A stretch of 31,604 bases of DNA from a virus. Its lineage: Duplodnaviria > Caudoviricetes. The notes beneath the pieces are model-generated. The model was given only the letters and a program-made list of their open reading frames with translations. It was not told the DNA's origin and did no database searches. The number at the start of each line of letters is the position of its first letter. Position 1 is the first letter of the stretch. The position numbers were made by a program, and so were the translations under genes. The DNA lies in the IMG/VR virus record IMGVR_UViG_3300014201_000021, positions 1-31,604 of that record; one strand, given 5' to 3'. Shown piece by piece: positions 1,927 to 21,745 of the stretch.

Positions 1927-2129
1927 AGAGTGATATTAGGTAAATCGTGAATGTTGAGAATGCCATATTCGTAAAGACCATACTTGACGGGGATTTCAAT
2001 CCTTGATTGATCTTTCTTCCAAGTGCGAACCTTGCCATTGATCTTCAGACGGATGGTACGGCCTTGGTGGTTGATGTATTGGATATGTGATCCATATCCA
2101 AGATTGATAGCTTGTTCGAGTGTGATCAT
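1920..2129 (-). CDS. Phage hypothetical protein (69 aa)
   Basis: AAGGAG RBS; INGKVRTWKK...IEIPVKYGLYEY motif. Confidence 0.8.
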   Translation of the reverse strand: MITLEQAINLGYGSHIQYINHQGRTIRLKINGKVRTWKKDQSRIEIPVKYGLYEYGILNIHDLPNITLS

Positions 2130-2154
2130 GGGATTCTCCTTTGGAGTGTTGGGT

Positions 2155-2247
2155 TTACTTGGACAGGGTAGCTTGCCAGTAAGGGAAGCTGTAGACGATT
2201 AGGCCAATGGCCACGAATGCCAGGAAGAAACGGAATGGATGATGCAT
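2155..2247 (-). CDS. Small membrane peptide (30 aa)
   Basis: MHHPFRFFLAFVAIGLIVYSFPYWQATLSK; AAGGAG RBS; first ORF after promoter copy 2. Confidence 0.55.
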   Translation of the reverse strand: MHHPFRFFLAFVAIGLIVYSFPYWQATLSK

Positions 2248-2289
2248 GGCTGGACTCCTTGTGGACTGGTTGAATCTTGCTCTGATACA

Positions 2290-2317
2290 AGGTTAGTCTC
2301 AATGGGCCGATGTGCAA
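2290..2317 (-). promoter_or_regulatory. Putative leftward early promoter, copy 2
   Basis: Minus strand TTGCAC-atcggcccattgagac-TAACCT; shares the CATCGGCCCA..TG..TAACCT core with 955-983. Confidence 0.55.
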
Positions 2318-2379
2318 GAAGTATAAGCAAATCAAAAGTATCTATAAGCGCAGGTAATAGAACGACCGTTCCATTCTAC

Positions 2380-2830
2380 ACTGTAGAGTGACTAAAAAGT
2401 ATACACTTGGCCGGACACTATATATGTACGCTTGGGGTGCATGTCCTAAAGATGTGTCGGCCTAGCCTGAACACTCTCCATGTCCTCTGTTGCATCTTCA
2501 TGCTGTAACTGTGCAATCCAGTAGCCCAAACGTCTTATACAGTGAGACAGTGTGTCATCATGTCACACTGTGCTTATGTTAGTGTATGTGTGTCATGTGT
2601 CTATAGGCTGAATTGAATGTGAGTGTAGTTGTGTCAGATTGTAATGTTATGGTTGGGAAGGATTGATATGTGAGTTAGACTCTAGTAGATCATTACCTTA
2701 TGGGGTGGAAGGATATCTTTCTCATCCCCTCACACTCACATAAACTTAAGCCTTTGACACTCATGTTAATGTGAGTCTAGCGTGCTCTAGCAGTGTGTGT
2801 CAGTGTGACTCACTAGGCCATGTGTGCTCA
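2380..2830. repeat. Non-coding TG-rich tract with short degenerate repeats
   Basis: Recurrent gtgtgtca, atgtgagt, acactca and ctag words; no ORF of 60 aa or more in any frame. Confidence 0.55.
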
Positions 2831-14419: not shown

Positions 14420-14929
14420 ATGATGTTGAAACCTACCGACCTGTTCAACGGCCCCATCATTGATATGGGTTCATTTACTAGATCAGTGGATGAATTCTCA
14501 GATCGCTCGTCATACTTCTATCATGGATGGGATTTAAATGGGATTGATCTGTATCCACAGTATCCGCTCTGTGTTGAGAGTGACCAGGGTGGACAGTTGG
14601 TTTGGATCATGGGTCTGGTTATTGGCAACAGGCCCGGTAAGGCGCTCCTGGTTGGCGTGACCAAGGTGCGTGGATTCAAGAGCAATATCCATTCGGCCTT
14701 CGAGGTTCTGCCGGGGATTCCCGCTGCCTTGGAAGAAGCGGCCCAGCAGACAGTCCTTAGAGCGATCAGAAAGAGAATGCGGTCAGGCGTGGCAATTCTT
14801 GCCCGTAAAGCAGACCTGATACCTTACAACGACCCAAGGGAGCACAATCATGACCTATTACCAGTACTATCGGAACCCGTATCTTACGGTGCGAAAGGCA
14901 GACGGGAAAGCCAATCTACTGCTGGCTGA
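14420..14929 (+). CDS. Hypothetical protein
   Basis: GGAG RBS before ATG 14420/14423. Confidence 0.6.
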   Translation: MMLKPTDLFNGPIIDMGSFTRSVDEFSDRSSYFYHGWDLNGIDLYPQYPLCVESDQGGQLVWIMGLVIGNRPGKALLVGVTKVRGFKSNIHSAFEVLPGIPAALEEAAQQTVLRAIRKRMRSGVAILARKADLIPYNDPREHNHDLLPVLSEPVSYGAKGRRESQSTAG

Positions 14930-16154
14930 TGGCCGGGAGTTGCTTCGGGAGCCATTGCCGGATACCGCGACAGATGAAGAACTGGGTCTAGCCGCAGTCA
15001 AGGAGATTCTGTTCCTAGTGGTGCGTGATCTGGTGGATATCATCCCGCTCTTGCGCGAGGTTGAGGGCAGCAATTATGTGATTCAGCTTCCAACCACGGG
15101 CATGAGCAAGATCCGCAAGGTTGGGTTCATGCGTGGGCATATACTCTATCTCACCAATGGCTTGGCGAAGCAGATTGGCCGTGAATATTGGAAAGGGGCC
15201 AAGGAAAAGCCAAAGCATATCCCGGAAATATTTGAAGGTAACATAAGCAATATCCATGGTTATAGTTGCGATTGGATCTGTGGGGAGTTCCCGGAACATC
15301 TCCATGCTGATGTCTATGCCAATGGCAGGCAGGGTGGTGGCAGGGGATTCAACAAGTCCAATATTTTCGATCTGGCTGAAGATGAAGGCATTGAGTTGGG
15401 TAGCATCCCCATTCACCCGCTAGAGCGAAAGATCATGATCCTGCCGGTTGGGGTGAACAAGGCCAAGGCAAGGACCAGGAACGATTTGCCAAAGCCGTTG
15501 GAAGGCCCAAGTGCAACGGCCATGAATTACAAGCCGGACGAAGATTTCATCAGGGAAAGCCGCGAGAGCAAGGGCGGCATCATGTCGGACCGGACATATG
15601 CCCATATCCTCAAACGGATCAAGGCTGATGCTCGGGAAGAAATCTACCGGATTCAGGATGAACCGGCCAATCGCTACCAGATGATGCAGTATATCCCCTG
15701 GGCGGTTACTGAAGGCAAGACGCTGCGTGACATTTGCCGGGGCGTCAACGGCACTCCAACCATGCTGGAAGTGGCTCGGTGGCTTCAGTATTACCCTGAC
15801 TTCAGGCGTGAACTGGAAGTGGCTGAGAACATCCAGGCTCATACCTTTGTCGATCAGGCCCAGGAAATCATCATGGGGTTGCACTCGAATGCAGAGAAAG
15901 GCCAGATTGCCGTGGCCAAGGCACAGAGCGGGTTTCTGATGCAGAGGGCTGCACTCCAGTCCGAGAAGTTCCGGGAGAAGAAGGTCATTCAGACAGAGAA
16001 CCTGGACAACAAAAACGAAGCAGAGGTCAAGCGCAAACTCAAGATGCTGCTTAGGGGTGAGGTTGTCTCAGACATCATTGAGGTCGAAGCCTATCCGCCG
16101 CCGCCACCTGTCCCCAAGGCTGTGCCTGAGTTTGGGGAAGAAGATGCGGGATGA
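14850..16154 (+). CDS. Terminase small subunit-like protein with a long N-terminal extension
   Basis: C-terminal EGKTLRDICR...PTMLEVARWL...PDFRRELEVA...AHTFVDQAQEI resembles Sf6 gp1-type TerS; lies upstream of TerL. Confidence 0.65.
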   Translation: MTYYQYYRNPYLTVRKADGKANLLLADGRELLREPLPDTATDEELGLAAVKEILFLVVRDLVDIIPLLREVEGSNYVIQLPTTGMSKIRKVGFMRGHILYLTNGLAKQIGREYWKGAKEKPKHIPEIFEGNISNIHGYSCDWICGEFPEHLHADVYANGRQGGGRGFNKSNIFDLAEDEGIELGSIPIHPLERKIMILPVGVNKAKARTRNDLPKPLEGPSATAMNYKPDEDFIRESRESKGGIMSDRTYAHILKRIKADAREEIYRIQDEPANRYQMMQYIPWAVTEGKTLRDICRGVNGTPTMLEVARWLQYYPDFRRELEVAENIQAHTFVDQAQEIIMGLHSNAEKGQIAVAKAQSGFLMQRAALQSEKFREKKVIQTENLDNKNEAEVKRKLKMLLRGEVVSDIIEVEAYPPPPPVPKAVPEFGEEDAG

Positions 16155-16181
16155 AAAGAAGAACCCCCGCCGAAGCGGGGG
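16154..16181 (-). terminator. Intrinsic terminator for the antisense gene pair
   Basis: Minus strand CCCCCGC-TTCG-GCGGGGG followed by TTCTTCTTTT. Confidence 0.8.
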
Positions 16182-16209
16182 CTGGGGGAATCGCCCTGAA
16201 TCTACTTGC

Positions 16210-16482
16210 TTACGTATTAGGGCTATTCGGGTTCATTGTCTTAATTTGTTCGCGTTCTTTCTCGACGCGCTTCAGATAAGCACCCTTGATGTTGACCGGA
16301 TCATAGGGATCTCGGGATGCAGGTTCAGCCGAATGGCATTCAAAGATTTCATCAGTCTCACAGTTGCGAACCGTGATGTTCTGATGGGCCACGTTGCCGC
16401 CGCGATCATCGCCCTGAAGGTAGGGGGCCTTGAACTTGTGCGGATAAAGCCTGGGAGTCACATTGATTGGCTTCAAAGGCAT
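16210..16482 (-). CDS. Hypothetical protein (90 aa)
   Basis: AAGGAG RBS; followed by a terminator. Confidence 0.75.
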   Translation of the reverse strand: MPLKPINVTPRLYPHKFKAPYLQGDDRGGNVAHQNITVRNCETDEIFECHSAEPASRDPYDPVNIKGAYLKRVEKEREQIKTMNPNSPNT

Positions 16483-16491
16483 ATTGACTCC

Positions 16492-16911
16492 TTACTTGTG
16501 CGGAGTCTTGTGGGCTCGGCTGTGATGGGGATGCTTGGGGTGATGAGGGTTATGGCGAACGCCGTCACCACGAAGCTCATGGGGATGGCCTTCAGCGCCA
16601 TTGTACTTGTACTGGTCCATATGGTCCTTCTCAAGACCAACGGAACCATCGGTTCGGGTCATCTCGTGATGGACATGCATGAAGTGTTCGCCAAGATGGC
16701 CTTCCTTGGCATGGGCATCCAGGATCTTCTCGTGGCCTTCCATGTGGTCAACATGCTCACCAAGGACTTCGCCGTGAGGACCGTCAGCAAAAGCCTGGGG
16801 CGGAACGACAACAGCCGCTTCGGCAAGGGTGGAATGGCCGGGAGTCTGGATAGTGCCCGTGCCAATGGTCTGGTGATACTTCACCGCGAGAATTTCAGGG
16901 ACCGTCTTCAT
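16492..16911 (-). CDS. His-rich hypothetical protein (139 aa)
   Basis: GAGGT RBS; about 23 His; C/G-biased third codon positions. Confidence 0.8.
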   Translation of the reverse strand: MKTVPEILAVKYHQTIGTGTIQTPGHSTLAEAAVVVPPQAFADGPHGEVLGEHVDHMEGHEKILDAHAKEGHLGEHFMHVHHEMTRTDGSVGLEKDHMDQYKYNGAEGHPHELRGDGVRHNPHHPKHPHHSRAHKTPHK

Positions 16912-16953
16912 TGTTTTACCTCTTTTTGGGGTTACGCCCGGAATTGGGCATTT

Positions 16954-17005
16954 TTGACCGGGTATCGGTCTATCCTTATGATAAGTCCTTTAAGGGGGAA
17001 TACAA
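16954..17005. promoter_or_regulatory. Putative bidirectional promoter with overlapping -10 boxes
   Basis: Plus strand TTGACC-N17-TATGAT (16954-16982); minus strand TTGTAT-N16-TATCAT (17005-16978). Confidence 0.55.
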
Positions 17006-19396
17006 GTGTCCGAGCCTAAGCGCAAGATGACAGAGGCGGAACTGGACGCCATGGTGGATGGGATGTCTCTGGCAGAGGCTTCGGCGGCAGCGGAGTATAT
17101 TGAAACACTGGCTAAGAAGAAGCAAGAGGGTATGTTCTACAATTATGAACCCCAGGCGCACCAAGTTGCGGTTCATGCAGATAAGCGTAAAATAGTTGAT
17201 GTAATGGGGGGTAATCGCTGCTTAGGAGGGGAGCAAGAGATATTTGACCCCATTGAAAATAAGTTTAAACGAGTAGATAGGATTGATGGTGATTTCCACG
17301 TTTGGGCATGGGATGGCAAGCAGAAAGTTATTGCTCTGGCCCATCGTCCGTTCCAAAAGGCAAAGGCTGATCTATACCGGCTGACTTTTGATGATGGGGT
17401 AGAAATTGTTGTTTCACCGCATCATCTATTGTGGGGTCCAAAAGGATGGCTTGAATGTCGCCTCTATGTCGAGAAACGCGAAGTCGTTGTTCCCCATCCG
17501 GCGACCAATTGGGACACCTACCTGTTAACTCATCCCGAAGATGTTGAGCATTTGAGGTATATAGTTCAAGGTTATCAATCCGATTGTCAGCCACATCAGC
17601 ATTCTTATGATGGACGACCTCATTTGGCTCCAACATCCGGCCAAGAAATTCAGCCATTACGAGGCGATGTTCTGGCACATAAACACGAGTCTTGCGACCA
17701 TTCCCACGAGCCATTGGATGACCTGGACGATAAACCATCACATACCCATGTTTATCATAAGTCTTCCCGCCTTTCCAATCTGGATGGCCTTCGCCGCCTC
17801 GTGGCCCAGTTCGCTGGCAATGGATTCCAAACCGTTTACACGCTTTTGAAACGAGTTTGCCACTCACTCCAAGCCTTCGGCCAATTTCTTCATGGGTCAA
17901 TAGATCAATTTCAACCCATTGTCGTATCTGGTCCACAGGCCAATCATAGCCTCCTTGATTTTTTCCGCTCCCGCGACCTGTCCCATCAACTTTCGGTTTC
18001 CATTCCATCGTTTACTACCTCCAATAGAAGTGTAGTGCAAATCGGTTACCTCCGCAATGATTTTGTTTGGGACTTTGAGGTAGAGGACCACCACAACTAC
18101 TTCATAGGTGATATTTTAAGTCATAATTCGGGAAAATCGCATTGCTGTGCTTTCACAATAGCTTGTCATGCCTTGGGGATTTACCCATCATGGTGGACTG
18201 GAATAACATATACGCATCCAATTGATATTGGCATCATTTCAATCAGCACAGAACAGATGCGTAAATCAGCACAGGTAAAGTTGATGGGTGAACCTTTCTC
18301 TATTGGGACCGGGTTTATCCCCAAAGATATGATCAACATGGATGAACTTCACTGGAGGGCCGGGACCAACGGGTGTCTAGACTGGGTTCTCGTTAAACAT
18401 TCCTCTGGTGGATGGTCAAGACTGAACTTTATGGTTAATGAGCAAGGTCAGAAGAAATTCATGGGTTATGCGTGGGATCTAGCGTGGTTCGATGAGGAAC
18501 CGGAGATGGATGTGTTTGATGAAGTTCAGATGCGTTTAGTTGATAAGCGTGGCAATATCATTCTGTCTTACTATCCATACAATGGAGAAACAGAACTTGT
18601 GCAAAAGCTAGACAAGATGAGTGAAGAATTTTGTGGACACTACTCATTTTATATGGGAGACAATAAGACACTTGACCCGGAAGTTCTGAGGATGCACGAA
18701 GAATCCATGCCAGAGTGGCAAAAAGAGTCAAGAATGTATGGCAGGCCAGGGGTTGGTGCTGGCCGTATTTTCTCATTTAGCAAAGACGATTATGTGATCG
18801 AGAGATTTGAAATCGAGAATCATTGGCCGAGAATAGGTGGTTTCGACGTTGGGTTACAGCACGGAACGGCAGCTGTAGCCCTTGCATTGGAATACGTTGC
18901 CAGGGATGAGGCACCAGTAGTTTATGTGTATAGGGAATACCTCAAAACAGGTAATATGCCTGGGGTCCACGCCATTACGCTGAGGTCATGGGGTGACATT
19001 GATCTGAAGATTGATACTAGTTCACACAGACGCTCACCTACCGATGGGCAAAATCTGTATACGATGTATCAAAATGAAGGGCTTAACATATCAAATGCAG
19101 ATACTAAGAGCGGATCTGTCGCTGATTCAATTAACACTATAAATCAGATGATTGCAGAAAAGCGCCTGTTCGTATTTGATAGTTGCCCGCAGTTAATACG
19201 CGAAATGGGTCTATATAAGCTGGTGAAATCGAAGGATGGTCGCGTAAAGGTCACTGAAAAGGAAGATGATCTCATTGACGCGCTTAGATATGCAATCATG
19301 GCATTGAATGAAGCTCGTGTGCCTGGCGTATCAAACATGAAACCTGCGCCGAAGATAGTCCAGTGGCATCCCCAAAACCCTCGCCTTGGGCTTTAA
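17006..19396 (+). CDS. terL: Terminase large subunit, intein-containing (493 aa after splicing)
   Basis: Walker A MGGNR|SGKS restored after intein removal; Walker B LAWFDEEP; RNase H motifs GGFDVG and DDLIDALRYA. Confidence 0.95.
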   Translation: MSEPKRKMTEAELDAMVDGMSLAEASAAAEYIETLAKKKQEGMFYNYEPQAHQVAVHADKRKIVDVMGGNRCLGGEQEIFDPIENKFKRVDRIDGDFHVWAWDGKQKVIALAHRPFQKAKADLYRLTFDDGVEIVVSPHHLLWGPKGWLECRLYVEKREVVVPHPATNWDTYLLTHPEDVEHLRYIVQGYQSDCQPHQHSYDGRPHLAPTSGQEIQPLRGDVLAHKHESCDHSHEPLDDLDDKPSHTHVYHKSSRLSNLDGLRRLVAQFAGNGFQTVYTLLKRVCHSLQAFGQFLHGSIDQFQPIVVSGPQANHSLLDFFRSRDLSHQLSVSIPSFTTSNRSVVQIGYLRNDFVWDFEVEDHHNYFIGDILSHNSGKSHCCAFTIACHALGIYPSWWTGITYTHPIDIGIISISTEQMRKSAQVKLMGEPFSIGTGFIPKDMINMDELHWRAGTNGCLDWVLVKHSSGGWSRLNFMVNEQGQKKFMGYAWDLAWFDEEPEMDVFDEVQMRLVDKRGNIILSYYPYNGETELVQKLDKMSEEFCGHYSFYMGDNKTLDPEVLRMHEESMPEWQKESRMYGRPGVGAGRIFSFSKDDYVIERFEIENHWPRIGGFDVGLQHGTAAVALALEYVARDEAPVVYVYREYLKTGNMPGVHAITLRSWGDIDLKIDTSSHRRSPTDGQNLYTMYQNEGLNISNADTKSGSVADSINTINQMIAEKRLFVFDSCPQLIREMGLYKLVKSKDGRVKVTEKEDDLIDALRYAIMALNEARVPGVSNMKPAPKIVQWHPQNPRLGL
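17328..18008 (-). CDS. HTH-HNH homing endonuclease nested antisense within the intein
   Basis: HTH LTHEEIGRRLGVSGKLVSKACKRFGI; HPDWKGG; YVPEHRLVMAEFLGR...VVHHKNADVADNRIDNLELY; GGAGGT RBS 8 nt before the ATG. Confidence 0.92.
   Translation of the reverse strand: MEWKPKVDGTGRGSGKNQGGYDWPVDQIRQWVEIDLLTHEEIGRRLGVSGKLVSKACKRFGIHCQRTGPRGGEGHPDWKGGKTYDKHGYVMVYRPGHPMARGNGRKTRVYVPEHRLVMAEFLGRMLEPNEVVHHKNADVADNRIDNLELYTSNAQHLRDELTGRCPNWSPDGEQRLRVSRHRGDIQAILLDPTIDDAVKQQFLPHHQKSAGIDQPLPFGTDDGPEQ
18029..18057 (-). promoter_or_regulatory. Candidate antisense promoter for the HNH gene
   Basis: Minus strand TTGCGG-N17-TACACT just upstream of the GGAGGT RBS. Confidence 0.4.
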
Positions 19397-19450: not shown

Positions 19451-21745
19451 GTGGATAACGGCTTAAGCATGTTGCCTAATGATCCCAGTTCACCCCCGTC
19501 AGTGGTCGAGGGTTACGGGGCTCTTGGTGAACAAGGGAACTTGGCCACCAAGGTTATGCATGACTTTCAGTTAGCATCAAGTTCACGTATTTTTCACGAG
19601 CAGCAAGTTCTATTGCGCGCATTATTTAATAGTCGTAGTTATTATTTGATTGACGGTGATTCACAAACCACAACGTCACAAGCCGCAGTAAACAGCACTA
19701 GGCCCAAGCTTCAGACCGCAGTTGCGCTATTGATGCCTATTGTGTGTCCTCCTGGCCAAGATCCGTTCACCATTGATCCTGACCCGGAAGCCATGGACCC
19801 CAAGGCCGCATGGGAAATGCTCCAGAAGGGCATTCCGCCTGACCAGATCAGGGACATGCTCTATCAGGCCGCTGGGAAGAAGTCTGACCGCCTGACCGCC
19901 AAGATCAAAAAGGGTGATGACTACTGCCGGGTAAATGACAAATTGCTACTATTCCTGTGGGATTTAGTAGTTTTCGGGACCGGGATCATGATGGGGCCGC
20001 TGGTGGTCCAGAACCCCGAAGTATCCGAAGACCCTGCCGAGGACGAGGAACAGGATAGTCCATCCTGGGCACCATCGCTCAAATTGCCGTTCGACAAGAA
20101 GGCAATGAAGATGATGATCAAGATGGGGGTGTTCGATGAATATCTGCCCCAGATGGAGCGGATCTGCCCTCTGGATATATATCCTGACCCTGGCGCAACC
20201 ACTGTAGAGATGGCCCGATTCATGATCTGGCGTATGCAGCTTGGCAAGGGCCAAGTCATGGGGATGCTGGAAGATAAGACGTTTAAACAGGATGTGATCA
20301 AACAGATCCTCAAGGACCACCCGGATGGCATCTGGCAACCGACCTACTGGGAAACATCGGTCAACTCCCTGAACAAGCAGCCACAGCAGACTTTGCCCAA
20401 TGGCCGATTCGTTTGCTACCAGTGGTGGGGTTATCTTACTGGGAAAGACCTCGCTGAGAACGGTGTCAAGGGTATTTCCCATGACCAGATGGATGAGCGG
20501 GTTGTGGCTCAGATTTGGGTCATGGGCAATAAGATCATCAAGATTGCCATCAGTGAATTGCATAATGAACGCCTGCCGTTCTATTTTGTGCCCTACTCTG
20601 TAGCCACCAACAGCATTTGGGGTGTTGGCGTTGCTGAGATGATGTTTGACCAGCATGACGGCATTCAGGGCTGCGAACGGGCCTTGATGGACGCCATGGC
20701 CATGTCCATTGCCCCACAGATGACCGTGGACGTTGACCAACTTGCTGACCCCTTGACCGTGTTGGAAATCAAGCCGCGCAAGATTTGGGGAGTCCGGGGC
20801 AAGGTTGGCATCTCCATGAAGCCGATTGAGTTCTTCCTGCCCCAGTATGACTTTACTGCCATGCTCCAGGTCCAGCAGAACGAGGAACGGCTTGCAGATG
20901 AGCAGACCGGCCTGCCTAAGTTCCTGAATGGTTCAACTGAAGGTGCCCATAACCGGACTTTTGGTGGTGCGAATCTTCAGTGGAACAACGCTCTAACTAC
21001 GCTCAAGACGGCAGTATATAACATCGAAACGAATTACATTGTCCCCAGCACCCAGAACAAGATCCGGTTCTTCCAGAAGTTCTCCAATGACCCGGCGATC
21101 AAGGGTTCCTACCGAGTCACCGCGCATGGGGTTCGTGGCCTGCTGGCGCGTGAATCCCTGACTGAAGCCATGGGCCTGTTGCTCCAGAACCTTGGCAATC
21201 TGCCGGATCAGGCCAAGCGGTTGAAGATGTCCAACTTCTTTAATTCCTACCTGCGCTATTCCGGGCTCAGTTCTGAGGATCTGGTTTATACCGATTCCGA
21301 GTTCTTGCAAATCCAGAAACAGGAACAGCAGGAACAACAGAAGAACGCTGCCTATCAGGCCGGTATTGATGCCTCTGTCCAGGCCCAGCCTAAACTCCGG
21401 GCTGAAATGCCGATCAAGGATGCCATTATCGAACTGGTCAAGGAAGCGCCAGAAAACAGTCCTCTACGGCTTGCCTATATGCAATTGGCCAATGATGTAT
21501 ATAATATTGGGACCCCGCAGATCAAGGCAGCTATGGCGGAGGAAGACCAGATGGCACATCTCGGCAACGTCAATGAGGCCCATCAGATGGGGCACCAGAT
21601 GGGTGGCCGACCGTTTGAACCTGCTCACAATCCCTTTGAAAAACATCCACACATGGCCCCGCCAACCCAGCAGGAAGGCGCTCCCACAAAGCCCAAGACC
21701 TCCAAGCCTGAAAAGGTTATTACCCATAGGGGGCGCAAGCGATGA
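19451..21745 (+). CDS. Portal protein (P22-like podovirus type)
   Basis: Position after TerL; LVVFGTGIM.GP, PLDIYPDP.AT, PY.....SIWGVGVAE motifs; Gln-rich C-terminal barrel helix. Confidence 0.9.
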   Translation: MDNGLSMLPNDPSSPPSVVEGYGALGEQGNLATKVMHDFQLASSSRIFHEQQVLLRALFNSRSYYLIDGDSQTTTSQAAVNSTRPKLQTAVALLMPIVCPPGQDPFTIDPDPEAMDPKAAWEMLQKGIPPDQIRDMLYQAAGKKSDRLTAKIKKGDDYCRVNDKLLLFLWDLVVFGTGIMMGPLVVQNPEVSEDPAEDEEQDSPSWAPSLKLPFDKKAMKMMIKMGVFDEYLPQMERICPLDIYPDPGATTVEMARFMIWRMQLGKGQVMGMLEDKTFKQDVIKQILKDHPDGIWQPTYWETSVNSLNKQPQQTLPNGRFVCYQWWGYLTGKDLAENGVKGISHDQMDERVVAQIWVMGNKIIKIAISELHNERLPFYFVPYSVATNSIWGVGVAEMMFDQHDGIQGCERALMDAMAMSIAPQMTVDVDQLADPLTVLEIKPRKIWGVRGKVGISMKPIEFFLPQYDFTAMLQVQQNEERLADEQTGLPKFLNGSTEGAHNRTFGGANLQWNNALTTLKTAVYNIETNYIVPSTQNKIRFFQKFSNDPAIKGSYRVTAHGVRGLLARESLTEAMGLLLQNLGNLPDQAKRLKMSNFFNSYLRYSGLSSEDLVYTDSEFLQIQKQEQQEQQKNAAYQAGIDASVQAQPKLRAEMPIKDAIIELVKEAPENSPLRLAYMQLANDVYNIGTPQIKAAMAEEDQMAHLGNVNEAHQMGHQMGGRPFEPAHNPFEKHPHMAPPTQQEGAPTKPKTSKPEKVITHRGRKR

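What the first reader, a model, noticed from the sequence alone, without database searches (positions are those of the whole stretch)
17219..18127. Intein whose homing endonuclease is a separate gene on the opposite strand
Seen: a 303-aa intein (Cys72 to His-Asn374, +1 Ser) splits the TerL Walker A motif GGNR|SGKS. Its middle ~180 residues show no LAGLIDADG or HNH motif and read like antisense shadow sequence, yet contain no stop. The opposite strand (18008-17328) encodes a complete 226-aa HTH-HNH nuclease with a GGAGGT RBS. Established: canonical inteins carry the endonuclease in frame between the splicing domains. Inference: a free-standing HNH gene invaded a mini-intein in reverse orientation, giving a composite mobile element in which splicing makes the insert harmless and endonuclease expression is uncoupled from TerL. 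I recall alternative-frame intein endonucleases being reported in some phages, so novelty needs a literature check.
Basis: partly seen in the sequence, partly recalled or inferred. Interest (0 to 1): 0.92.

Follow-up and report, generated by a model that had tools for sequence, protein, structure and literature searches.

The report
Terminase intein with antisense HNH gene
A phage DNA-packaging gene is interrupted in its ATP-binding loop by an intein (an insert predicted to splice itself out of the protein) whose DNA, read on the opposite strand, holds an intact, selected nuclease gene that likely spreads the insert and is predicted to have its own promoter inside the intein's coding sequence; such two-strand inteins were described as rare with other nucleases, but this HNH version is a large family in environmental phages.

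Summary
Observation confirmed. A 303-aa class-1 intein splits the TerL Walker A motif (GGNR|SGKS), and an intact 226-aa HTH + HNH_3 gene lies on the opposite strand. Across the overlap, selection acts on the HNH frame (dN/dS 0.09, against 3.0 in the TerL frame); the TerL frame only stays free of stops. It is not a one-off: 138 of 160 best HNH relatives lie antisense, in the same phase, inside long host ORFs, 131 with an intein C-end. Hosts are terminases and other P-loop ATPases, including cultured Pectobacterium phage Ymer, unannotated. Empty, full and mini alleles coexist. One relative differs from its empty twin only by the intein plus about 540 bp downstream, which looks like recent homing. 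A sigma-70-like antisense promoter in the intein's C-terminal codons beats a recoding null in 45 of 78 members (control 2 of 72). Splicing, expression and cutting are untested. Antisense LAGLIDADG and VSR inteins are published (Gosselin 2025); I found no antisense-HNH report in eight searches. This scan noted the same layout before on other DNA (62 findings). New variant of a known kind.

The parts
17006..19396 (+). Terminase large subunit precursor, 796 aa (493 aa extein + 303 aa intein)
   Evidence: Pfam Terminase_6N E 9e-8, Terminase_6C E 5e-7; lies between a TerS-like ORF (14850-16154) and an SU10-like portal (19451-21745)
17219..18127 (+). Class-1 intein in Walker A (GGNR|SGKS): Cys1, block-B His69, block-F Asp285, His302-Asn303, +1 Ser
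   Evidence: empty alleles read GGNR|SGKS without it
17219..17482 (+). N-terminal splicing (Hint) region, intein residues 1-88
   Evidence: pLDDT 88-98 over residues 1-80; Foldseek to Mtu RecA and DnaB inteins, rmsd 1.4-1.7; substitutions mostly at host codon position 3
17486..18010 (+). Stop-free 'shadow' linker (intein residues 90-264), predicted disordered; the antisense image of the HNH
   Evidence: pLDDT <50; substitutions mostly at host codon position 2, which is the HNH wobble position (20/64/18); absent from 130-136 aa mini-inteins at the same site
18011..18127 (+). C-terminal splicing region (blocks F/G), intein residues 265-303; its DNA also carries the HNH start signals on the other strand
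17328..18008 (-). HTH + HNH_3 endonuclease gene, 226 aa, I-HmuI-like catalytic core
   Evidence: HNH_3 E 6e-11; top Foldseek hit I-HmuI 1u3e, prob 0.97 but E 0.074; dN/dS 0.05-0.09
17544..17669 (-). HNH_3 core (HNH residues 114-155, EHR...VVHHKN...DN...N)
   Evidence: His114, Arg115, His134, Asn146 and His156 invariant in 89 of 89 representatives, partly by ascertainment
17832..17936 (-). Predicted three-helix HTH DNA-binding module (HNH residues 25-59)
18017..18022 (-). Shine-Dalgarno GGAGGT, 8 nt before the HNH ATG
   Evidence: sequence; a 4-6 nt SD-like match in 60 of 89 representatives, with starts chosen to favour it
18029..18057 (-). Predicted sigma-70-like promoter for the HNH: TTGCGG (18057-18052), 17 nt, TACACT (18034-18029), inside intein C-terminal codons
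   Evidence: p 0.010 against synonymous recoding; only 7 of 12 consensus letters, not listed by the generic scan

Best explanation
This is a two-strand selfish element: an intein in the terminase P-loop, predicted to splice itself out and so restore TerL, carries an intact HNH nuclease gene on the opposite strand, which is likely expressed from a promoter within the intein's own C-terminal codons and likely cuts or nicks intein-free terL alleles so that repair copies the element in. Shown: both ORFs; splicing residues and Hint fold (model); purifying selection on the HNH frame with only stop-avoidance in the TerL frame; coexistence of empty, full and mini alleles; family-wide fixed orientation and phase. 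Inferred: splicing (TerL is essential and the insert sits in Walker A); antisense transcription; nicking rather than double-strand cutting (by analogy with I-HmuI); the target being the empty P-loop sequence; and the benefit of uncoupling (a host-polymerase-type promoter would supply nuclease earlier than a packaging gene is made; speculation). In this phase the HNH wobble base is TerL codon position 2, so the sense frame drifts freely and serves as a disordered loop in the place where endonuclease domains usually sit.
For: Window vs L086: HNH frame 84% identical, dN/dS 0.094; intein frame 51%, dN/dS 3.0. 16 of 16 disjoint pairs are more conserved in the HNH frame, median pN/pS 0.16 vs 2.5. 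The wobble position switches from host position 3 in the splicing domains to position 2 under the HNH. 138 of 160 best HNH relatives have an open antisense frame in this phase, 131 of 138 with block F/G; 52 clusters at 60% identity. Among 12 close terL alleles 3 carry the intein, and they are separated by empty alleles with starred support (tree on 9 of the 12). L252 vs empty L248: 0 mismatches in 540 nt upstream, 114 in 540 nt downstream, then near identity, with +1 Ala in the empty allele and +1 Ser beside the intein. The L252 tract is further from neighbours L250, L251 and L253 than the empty allele's tract is (99/95/117 vs 66/77/96 mismatches), favouring gain. Over 34 TerL loci mean identity is HNH 0.55, splicing domain 0.41, extein 0.28. 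Promoter: 45 of 78 representatives p<0.05, 22 of 43 clusters at 60% identity, C-extein control 2 of 72; 17 of 27 SD-less members have the -10 box 6-9 nt before ATG vs 1 of 51 with SD.
Against: No experiment: splicing, expression and cleavage are untested. The window's own promoter is weak (7 of 12) and the generic scan did not list it. The scoring matrix was recalled, and family members are not independent. Among 7 distinct mini-inteins 1-2 also reached p<0.05 depending on the window length. The one-sided tract is a single case: a second terL clade (51 empty, 19 full, 8 mini, 2 cut of 80) shows no extended tract, and pair L471/L473 shows the opposite polarity. The Foldseek match to I-HmuI is not significant by E-value (0.074). 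One close relative has a pseudogenised HNH. Monophyly of the intein-borne HNHs is not shown (at least 3 label changes forced).
Confidence: 0.85

Rival explanations
1. The HNH is a domesticated packaging cofactor (like terminase-associated HNH proteins of cos phages; recalled) that happens to sit inside the intein, so selection on it reflects a phage function and not homing.
For: Most hosts found are terminases; HNH genes next to terminases are known (PMC3592412, search listing only).
Against: 9 of 12 close terL alleles and 51 of 80 in a second clade lack the insert. The same HNH clade sits in clamp-loader, DnaB-like, AAA_25, SNF2, Strawberry-notch and ClpX-like ATPases. A pseudogene and mini-inteins exist. 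I did not search the empty-allele genomes for an HNH elsewhere.
Confidence: 0.05
2. The architecture is real, but in this phage the element is no longer mobile or expressed: an intact relic on its way to decay.
For: A close relative has two TAG stops in the HNH and has lost the last T of the -10 box. The window's promoter is weak. No near-identical empty twin of the window was found (closest 66%).
Against: The ORF, SD, catalytic residues and -10/-35 spacing are intact. All 5 substitutions seen in two RNA-library contigs of near-identical strains fall on HNH wobble positions (few sites, low depth).
Confidence: 0.07
3. The antisense unit is kept mainly as a regulator of terL (convergent transcription or antisense RNA), with homing secondary.
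For: The predicted promoter faces into terL across the family.
Against: Selection is on HNH amino acids; empty alleles are common.
Confidence: 0.03

Closest known systems
[quoted passage not shown]
   Same: Contiguous intein with the nuclease in a separate ORF, including antisense and including TerL hosts; unstructured in-frame middle; the same proposed origin from a free-standing HEN.
   Different: The nuclease here is HTH + HNH_3; the paper lists HNH only in frame. It calls the layouts rare or extremely rare (63 of 784 non-canonical), whereas here antisense is the normal state of a family spanning several P-loop ATPase hosts. An embedded antisense promoter was not mentioned in the sections read.
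Cyanobacterial dnaX intein with a +2-frame LAGLIDADG HEN (Phillips, DeSimone, Gogarten, bioRxiv 10.64898/2026.09.14.751524)
   Same: Frame-dependent dN/dS (low in the HEN frame, above 1 in the host frame); empty, mini and full alleles coexist; SD before the hidden ORF; proposed invasion of a mini-intein.
   Different: LAGLIDADG, described as a +2 overlapping ORF; the main text has 0 hits for HNH, promoter or antisense.
ShiLan element: out-of-frame HNH in mycobacteriophage DNA methylases (Arsenault et al. 2025, PMC11855218)
   Same: Hidden HNH with the host frame kept open; distant sequence relative of this HNH (34-36% over about 115 aa, E about 8e-7).
   Different: Same strand (frame 3) and no splicing domain; here opposite strand and inside an intein.
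I-HmuI / I-BasI nicking HNH homing endonucleases of phage group I introns (PMC3017599, passages)
   Same: HNH_3-type core; best structural match of the model (1u3e).
   Different: Intron-encoded and on the sense strand; here the HTH is N-terminal to the nuclease core; nicking is untested.

Membership tests
Class-1 intein | In-frame insert at a conserved host site, absent from homologous alleles | tested here: met
   9 of 12 close alleles read GGNR|[SAG]GK with no insert
Class-1 intein | N-terminal Cys/Ser, block-B His, block-F Asp, C-terminal His-Asn, +1 Cys/Ser/Thr | tested here: met
   C1, H69 invariant and D285, N303 nearly invariant in 24 aligned inteins; His302, +1 Ser; block names recalled
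Class-1 intein | Hint fold | tested here: met
   AF2 model; 15 PDB matches at E<=0.001, those listed all inteins; profile hits to DnaB and RecA inteins E 1e-9 to 2e-7
Class-1 intein | Protein splicing activity | not testable with these tools
   needs an expression assay
Canonical (in-frame HEN) intein | Endonuclease domain in the intein reading frame | tested here: not met
   no Pfam endonuclease in the sense frame; middle predicted disordered; dN/dS >1
HNH_3 (I-HmuI-like) homing endonuclease | HNH_3 motif with intact catalytic His/Asn | tested here: met
   E 6e-11, above cut-off; residues conserved
HNH_3 (I-HmuI-like) homing endonuclease | Structural likeness to I-HmuI | tested here: inconclusive
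   rank 1, prob 0.97, but E 0.074 and TM 0.28/0.35
HNH_3 (I-HmuI-like) homing endonuclease | Cleaves or nicks the empty allele near the insertion site | not testable with these tools
   indirect only: patchy distribution and one conversion-like tract
Anti-sense-HEN inteins (Gosselin 2025 types B, C) | [quoted passage not shown] | tested here: met
Anti-sense-HEN inteins (Gosselin 2025 types B, C) | HEN of LAGLIDADG or VSR-like family | tested here: not met
   only HNH_3 matches
ShiLan-type hidden HNH insertion | Same-strand out-of-frame HNH with no splicing domain | tested here: not met
   opposite strand, splicing domain present

The most novel reading that the evidence does not exclude
One old HNH lineage has become a dedicated opposite-strand homing partner for a whole family of P-loop-targeting phage inteins. 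It is held in one fixed phase and transcribed from a sigma-70-type promoter (often leaderless) written into the intein's C-terminal splicing codons. Two-strand inteins would then be a common, systematically mis-annotated design that times its nuclease independently of the host gene and switches between terminases, helicases and clamp loaders; related HNHs would also colonise methylases without any intein.
Probability: 0.55. Interest if true: 0.72.

Novelty: new variant of a known kind. Interest (0 to 1): 0.55.

Why it matters
Inteins with a separately encoded nuclease are described as extremely rare intermediates that bear on how inteins gained mobility ('splicing first'). A large HNH family with this layout, under clear selection and apparently still homing, turns a curiosity into a stable design, and means many inteins annotated as 'degenerate' hide working nucleases. 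The embedded promoter answers, as a prediction, how an antisense nuclease could be expressed at all. A cultured phage group (Ymer and relatives) makes splicing, antisense expression and homing directly testable. The family is also a source of diverse HNH nucleases aimed at P-loop-coding DNA, and a natural model of long overlapping genes.

Tried and rejected
RNA evidence: four metatranscriptome runs held 5-13% of the words; each gave one 151-260 nt contig without strand, so nothing follows about expression. A general one-sided (downstream) co-conversion rule was rejected: it is seen in one pair but not in a second clade of 80 alleles, where only positions -1 and +1..+3 differ between full and empty alleles and one pair points the other way. 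Stop-codon recoding as the reason for the TAGs in L087 was rejected, because its terL ends at TAG. The count '17 of 80' printed came from a faulty C-end pattern and was replaced (61 antisense HNH inside, 10 more with an antisense HNH but unparsed C-end, 8 mini, 1 cut). The generic promoter scan found nothing above chance (3 vs 2.9). A single-sequence C-extein search found only the window's own contig. The intein protein has no tblastn match in 50,697 GenBank phages, although the HNH does. PDB sequence search with the HNH profile gave only a weak HTH hit. Single origin of the intein-borne HNH was not established (FastTree only; 'free' there means only that no phase-1 antisense frame was open).

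Full report
Observation. The window is a phage contig: DnaB-like helicase, TerS-like gene, terL, SU10-like portal. terL (17006-19396, 796 aa) is interrupted at GGNR|SGKS by 303 codons that start with Cys and end His-Asn before Ser. The ends behave as an intein: Pfam Intein_splicing E 1.2e-6 (below cut-off), TIGR C-terminal model above cut-off and N-terminal model just below, and family-profile hits to DnaB and RecA inteins. An AlphaFold2 model is confident for residues 1-80 and 271-303, under pLDDT 50 for nearly all of 90-264, and matches intein structures. The minus strand holds a 226-aa ORF, 18008-17328, with HNH_3 at E 6e-11 and a GGAGGT 8 nt upstream. Its model has three N-terminal helices and its best structural match is I-HmuI, though not significant by E-value. 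Synonymous recoding leaves the other frame open in only 0.1% and 0.4% of 20,000 trials.

Which frame is selected. Against the closest intact relative (L086) the HNH core is 84% identical with dN/dS 0.094, while the same DNA read in the TerL frame is 51% identical with dN/dS 3.0. All 16 disjoint pairs at 70-97% identity agree (median pN/pS 0.16 vs 2.5). The overlap phase puts the HNH wobble base on TerL codon position 2. Mismatches by host codon position are 10/6/21 in the N-terminal splicing region, 20/64/18 under the HNH core and 6/4/12 in blocks F/G. Selection therefore hands over from one strand to the other along the insert, and the sense frame of the middle needs only to avoid stops. The HNH's last ~45 codons overlap splicing blocks and look unselected.

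A family, not a one-off. An HNH alignment retrieved 530 viral and 582 metagenome relatives (the latter from 11 of 64 parts of the collection); the best 80 of each were kept. An antisense frame in the same phase is open across the HNH in 80 of 80 viral loci (one is the window's own contig) and 58 of 80 metagenome loci. Two further loci have only a short frame in another phase, and 20 have none. 131 of the 138 show an intein block F/G. They collapse to 89 groups at 90% and 52 at 60% identity. In genome contigs the 11 best of 66 loci have the layout. Searching from the intein side, 71 of 80 loci carry an antisense HNH, 8 are 130-136 aa mini-inteins and 1 is cut; this search is biased towards full-length relatives. 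Of 56 host ORFs scanned, many are terminases of several families; others are clamp-loader AAA (L200, L205), DnaB-like (L209), AAA_25 (L193, L202, L207), SNF2 (L223), Strawberry-notch (L190) and ClpX-like AAA_2 (L186) proteins. The insertion points read as P-loop-type motifs. Two loci (L234, L243) have the antisense HNH inside an N6/N4 methylase with no intein. On a FastTree of 93 HNH cores a 56-row clade (support 93) holds 54 intein-antisense rows, but a single origin is not shown. Cultured Pectobacterium phage Ymer has the layout: a 754-aa terminase annotated 'hypothetical', with GFG|C...HHN|TGK and an unannotated 232-aa antisense HNH in the same phase. Seven related phage records give the same HNH match and were not inspected. 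The Ymer paper has no occurrence of intein, HNH or endonuclease (PMC11445585; listing and passages).

Mobility. Of 12 terL alleles at 59% or more identity (window included), 3 carry the intein; the 9 empty ones have +1 Ser (3), Ala (3) or Gly (3). Intein-bearing alleles are split by empty ones on the extein tree. L252 and empty L248 are identical for 540 nt upstream, differ at 114 of 540 nt just downstream, and are then almost identical again; the tract includes the Ser that splicing needs. Neighbour comparison favours gain in L252. This looks like a recent homing event with co-conversion, but polarity does not generalise. In a second clade (51 empty, 19 full, 8 mini, 2 cut) only positions -1 and +1..+3 track the intein (+1 codon TCN in 27 of 27 intein alleles, AGY in 42 of 51 empty), and one pair shows the reverse pattern. 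One close relative has two TAG stops in the HNH; 3 of 138 cores have a stop. Full, decayed, mini and empty alleles together match the homing cycle (established knowledge).

Expression signals. Upstream of the HNH start, inside the intein's C-terminal codons, many members show TTGACA-like and TATAAT-like boxes 16-18 nt apart. With a recalled sigma-70 matrix and a null that keeps the intein protein, 45 of 78 testable representatives (11 of 89 were dropped because no intein end was parsed 75-165 nt from the start) reach p<0.05 and 72 exceed the null mean. At 60% clustering it is 22 of 43; the C-extein control gives 2 of 72, and mini-inteins 1-2 of 7. Of 27 members without an SD, 17 have the -10 box 6-9 nt before the ATG, against 1 of 51 with an SD, the signature of leaderless mRNA. 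The window's site is TTGCGG-17-TACACT (p 0.010), weak enough that the generic scan omits it. RNA runs were uninformative. Expression remains a prediction.

Mechanism. Most likely the precursor splices to give normal TerL. An antisense transcript from the embedded promoter likely yields the HNH, which likely nicks or cuts empty alleles near the P-loop codons during co-infection, and recombination copies the intein. Nicking is inferred from I-HmuI (PMC3017599, passages). The origin by a free-standing HNH entering an intein is plausible (relatives without the antisense frame surround the clade; L184 is free-standing within it), but it is old and its direction is not shown.

What is known. Gosselin et al. 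[quoted passage not shown] They include TerL hosts, call these rare, and propose the same origin. Gorbalenya 1998 is cited through them, not read. Phillips et al. (10.64898/2026.09.14.751524; passages) show frame-dependent selection for a +2-frame LAGLIDADG in the dnaX intein. Arsenault et al. (PMC11855218; abstract and passages) describe a same-strand hidden HNH in methylases without splicing domains. Eight searches showed no report of an antisense HNH intein or of its embedded promoter; the library lacks most subscription papers, and the preprint's Supplemental Table 1 could bear on this. This scan has noted the layout on other DNA (62 findings in at least 54 genomes) and the promoter idea three times, and had nothing on conversion tracts. 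I consulted these notes after my own analyses; they are not support.

Verdict. Real, selected and probably mobile; a new variant (HNH, large family, embedded promoter) of a published kind. Interest 0.55.

Noticed in passing
L234:381-2531 (-), L243:695-2149 (-): A related HNH lies antisense, in the same phase, inside an N6/N4 DNA methylase with no intein motifs; in the host frame the insert is flanked by CxC and CxxC. A ShiLan-like element but on the opposite strand.
   Followed up: partly
L095:1319-2077 (-), L112:1247-1861 (-): A second intein in the terL nuclease domain holds a same-strand, out-of-frame ORF with an HHxDG...N HNH-like motif and CxxC repeats (252 and 204 aa); recognised by eye, no NCBIfam match of substance.
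   Followed up: partly
L470:580-2844 (-) and 1953-2651 (+), Pectobacterium phage Ymer OP748252.2: Cultured phage with an unannotated terL intein and antisense HNH of this family; a ready test system.
   Followed up: partly
L087 (= L003), HNH start region: The HNH pseudogene (two TAG stops at positions aligned to Trp23 and Trp78) also has TACACC where intact relatives have the -10-like TACACT.
   Followed up: partly
L471-L550, terL insertion site: The +1 Ser codon is TCN in 27 of 27 intein alleles but AGY in 42 of 51 empty alleles; empty alleles near the window often have Ala or Gly at +1. Either co-conversion of the +1 codon or resistance of the remaining empty alleles.
   Followed up: partly
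L184:3483-3884 (+): A free-standing HNH ORF nested within the intein-associated clade (support 95), next to a DnaB-like gene on the other strand: an escapee or an ancestral state.
   Followed up: no
L187, L180, L327: A second insertion point three residues further along the terL Walker A (NQ/NKxGK|T or S) is used by family members.
   Followed up: no
window 16057-17019 (+) with 16492-16911 (-) and 16210-16482 (-): Between terS and terL a 320-codon plus-strand ORF overlaps two minus-strand ORFs, one His-rich (139 aa, no Pfam match); unclear which is the gene.
   Followed up: no
window 16936-16982 (+): A terminator-like hairpin followed by TTGACC-17-TATGAT (10 of 12) just upstream of terL; the regional count is not above chance.
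   Followed up: no
L210:83-3460 (-): An intein of about 540 aa with a much longer shadow region and a longer antisense ORF (about 413 aa).
   Followed up: no
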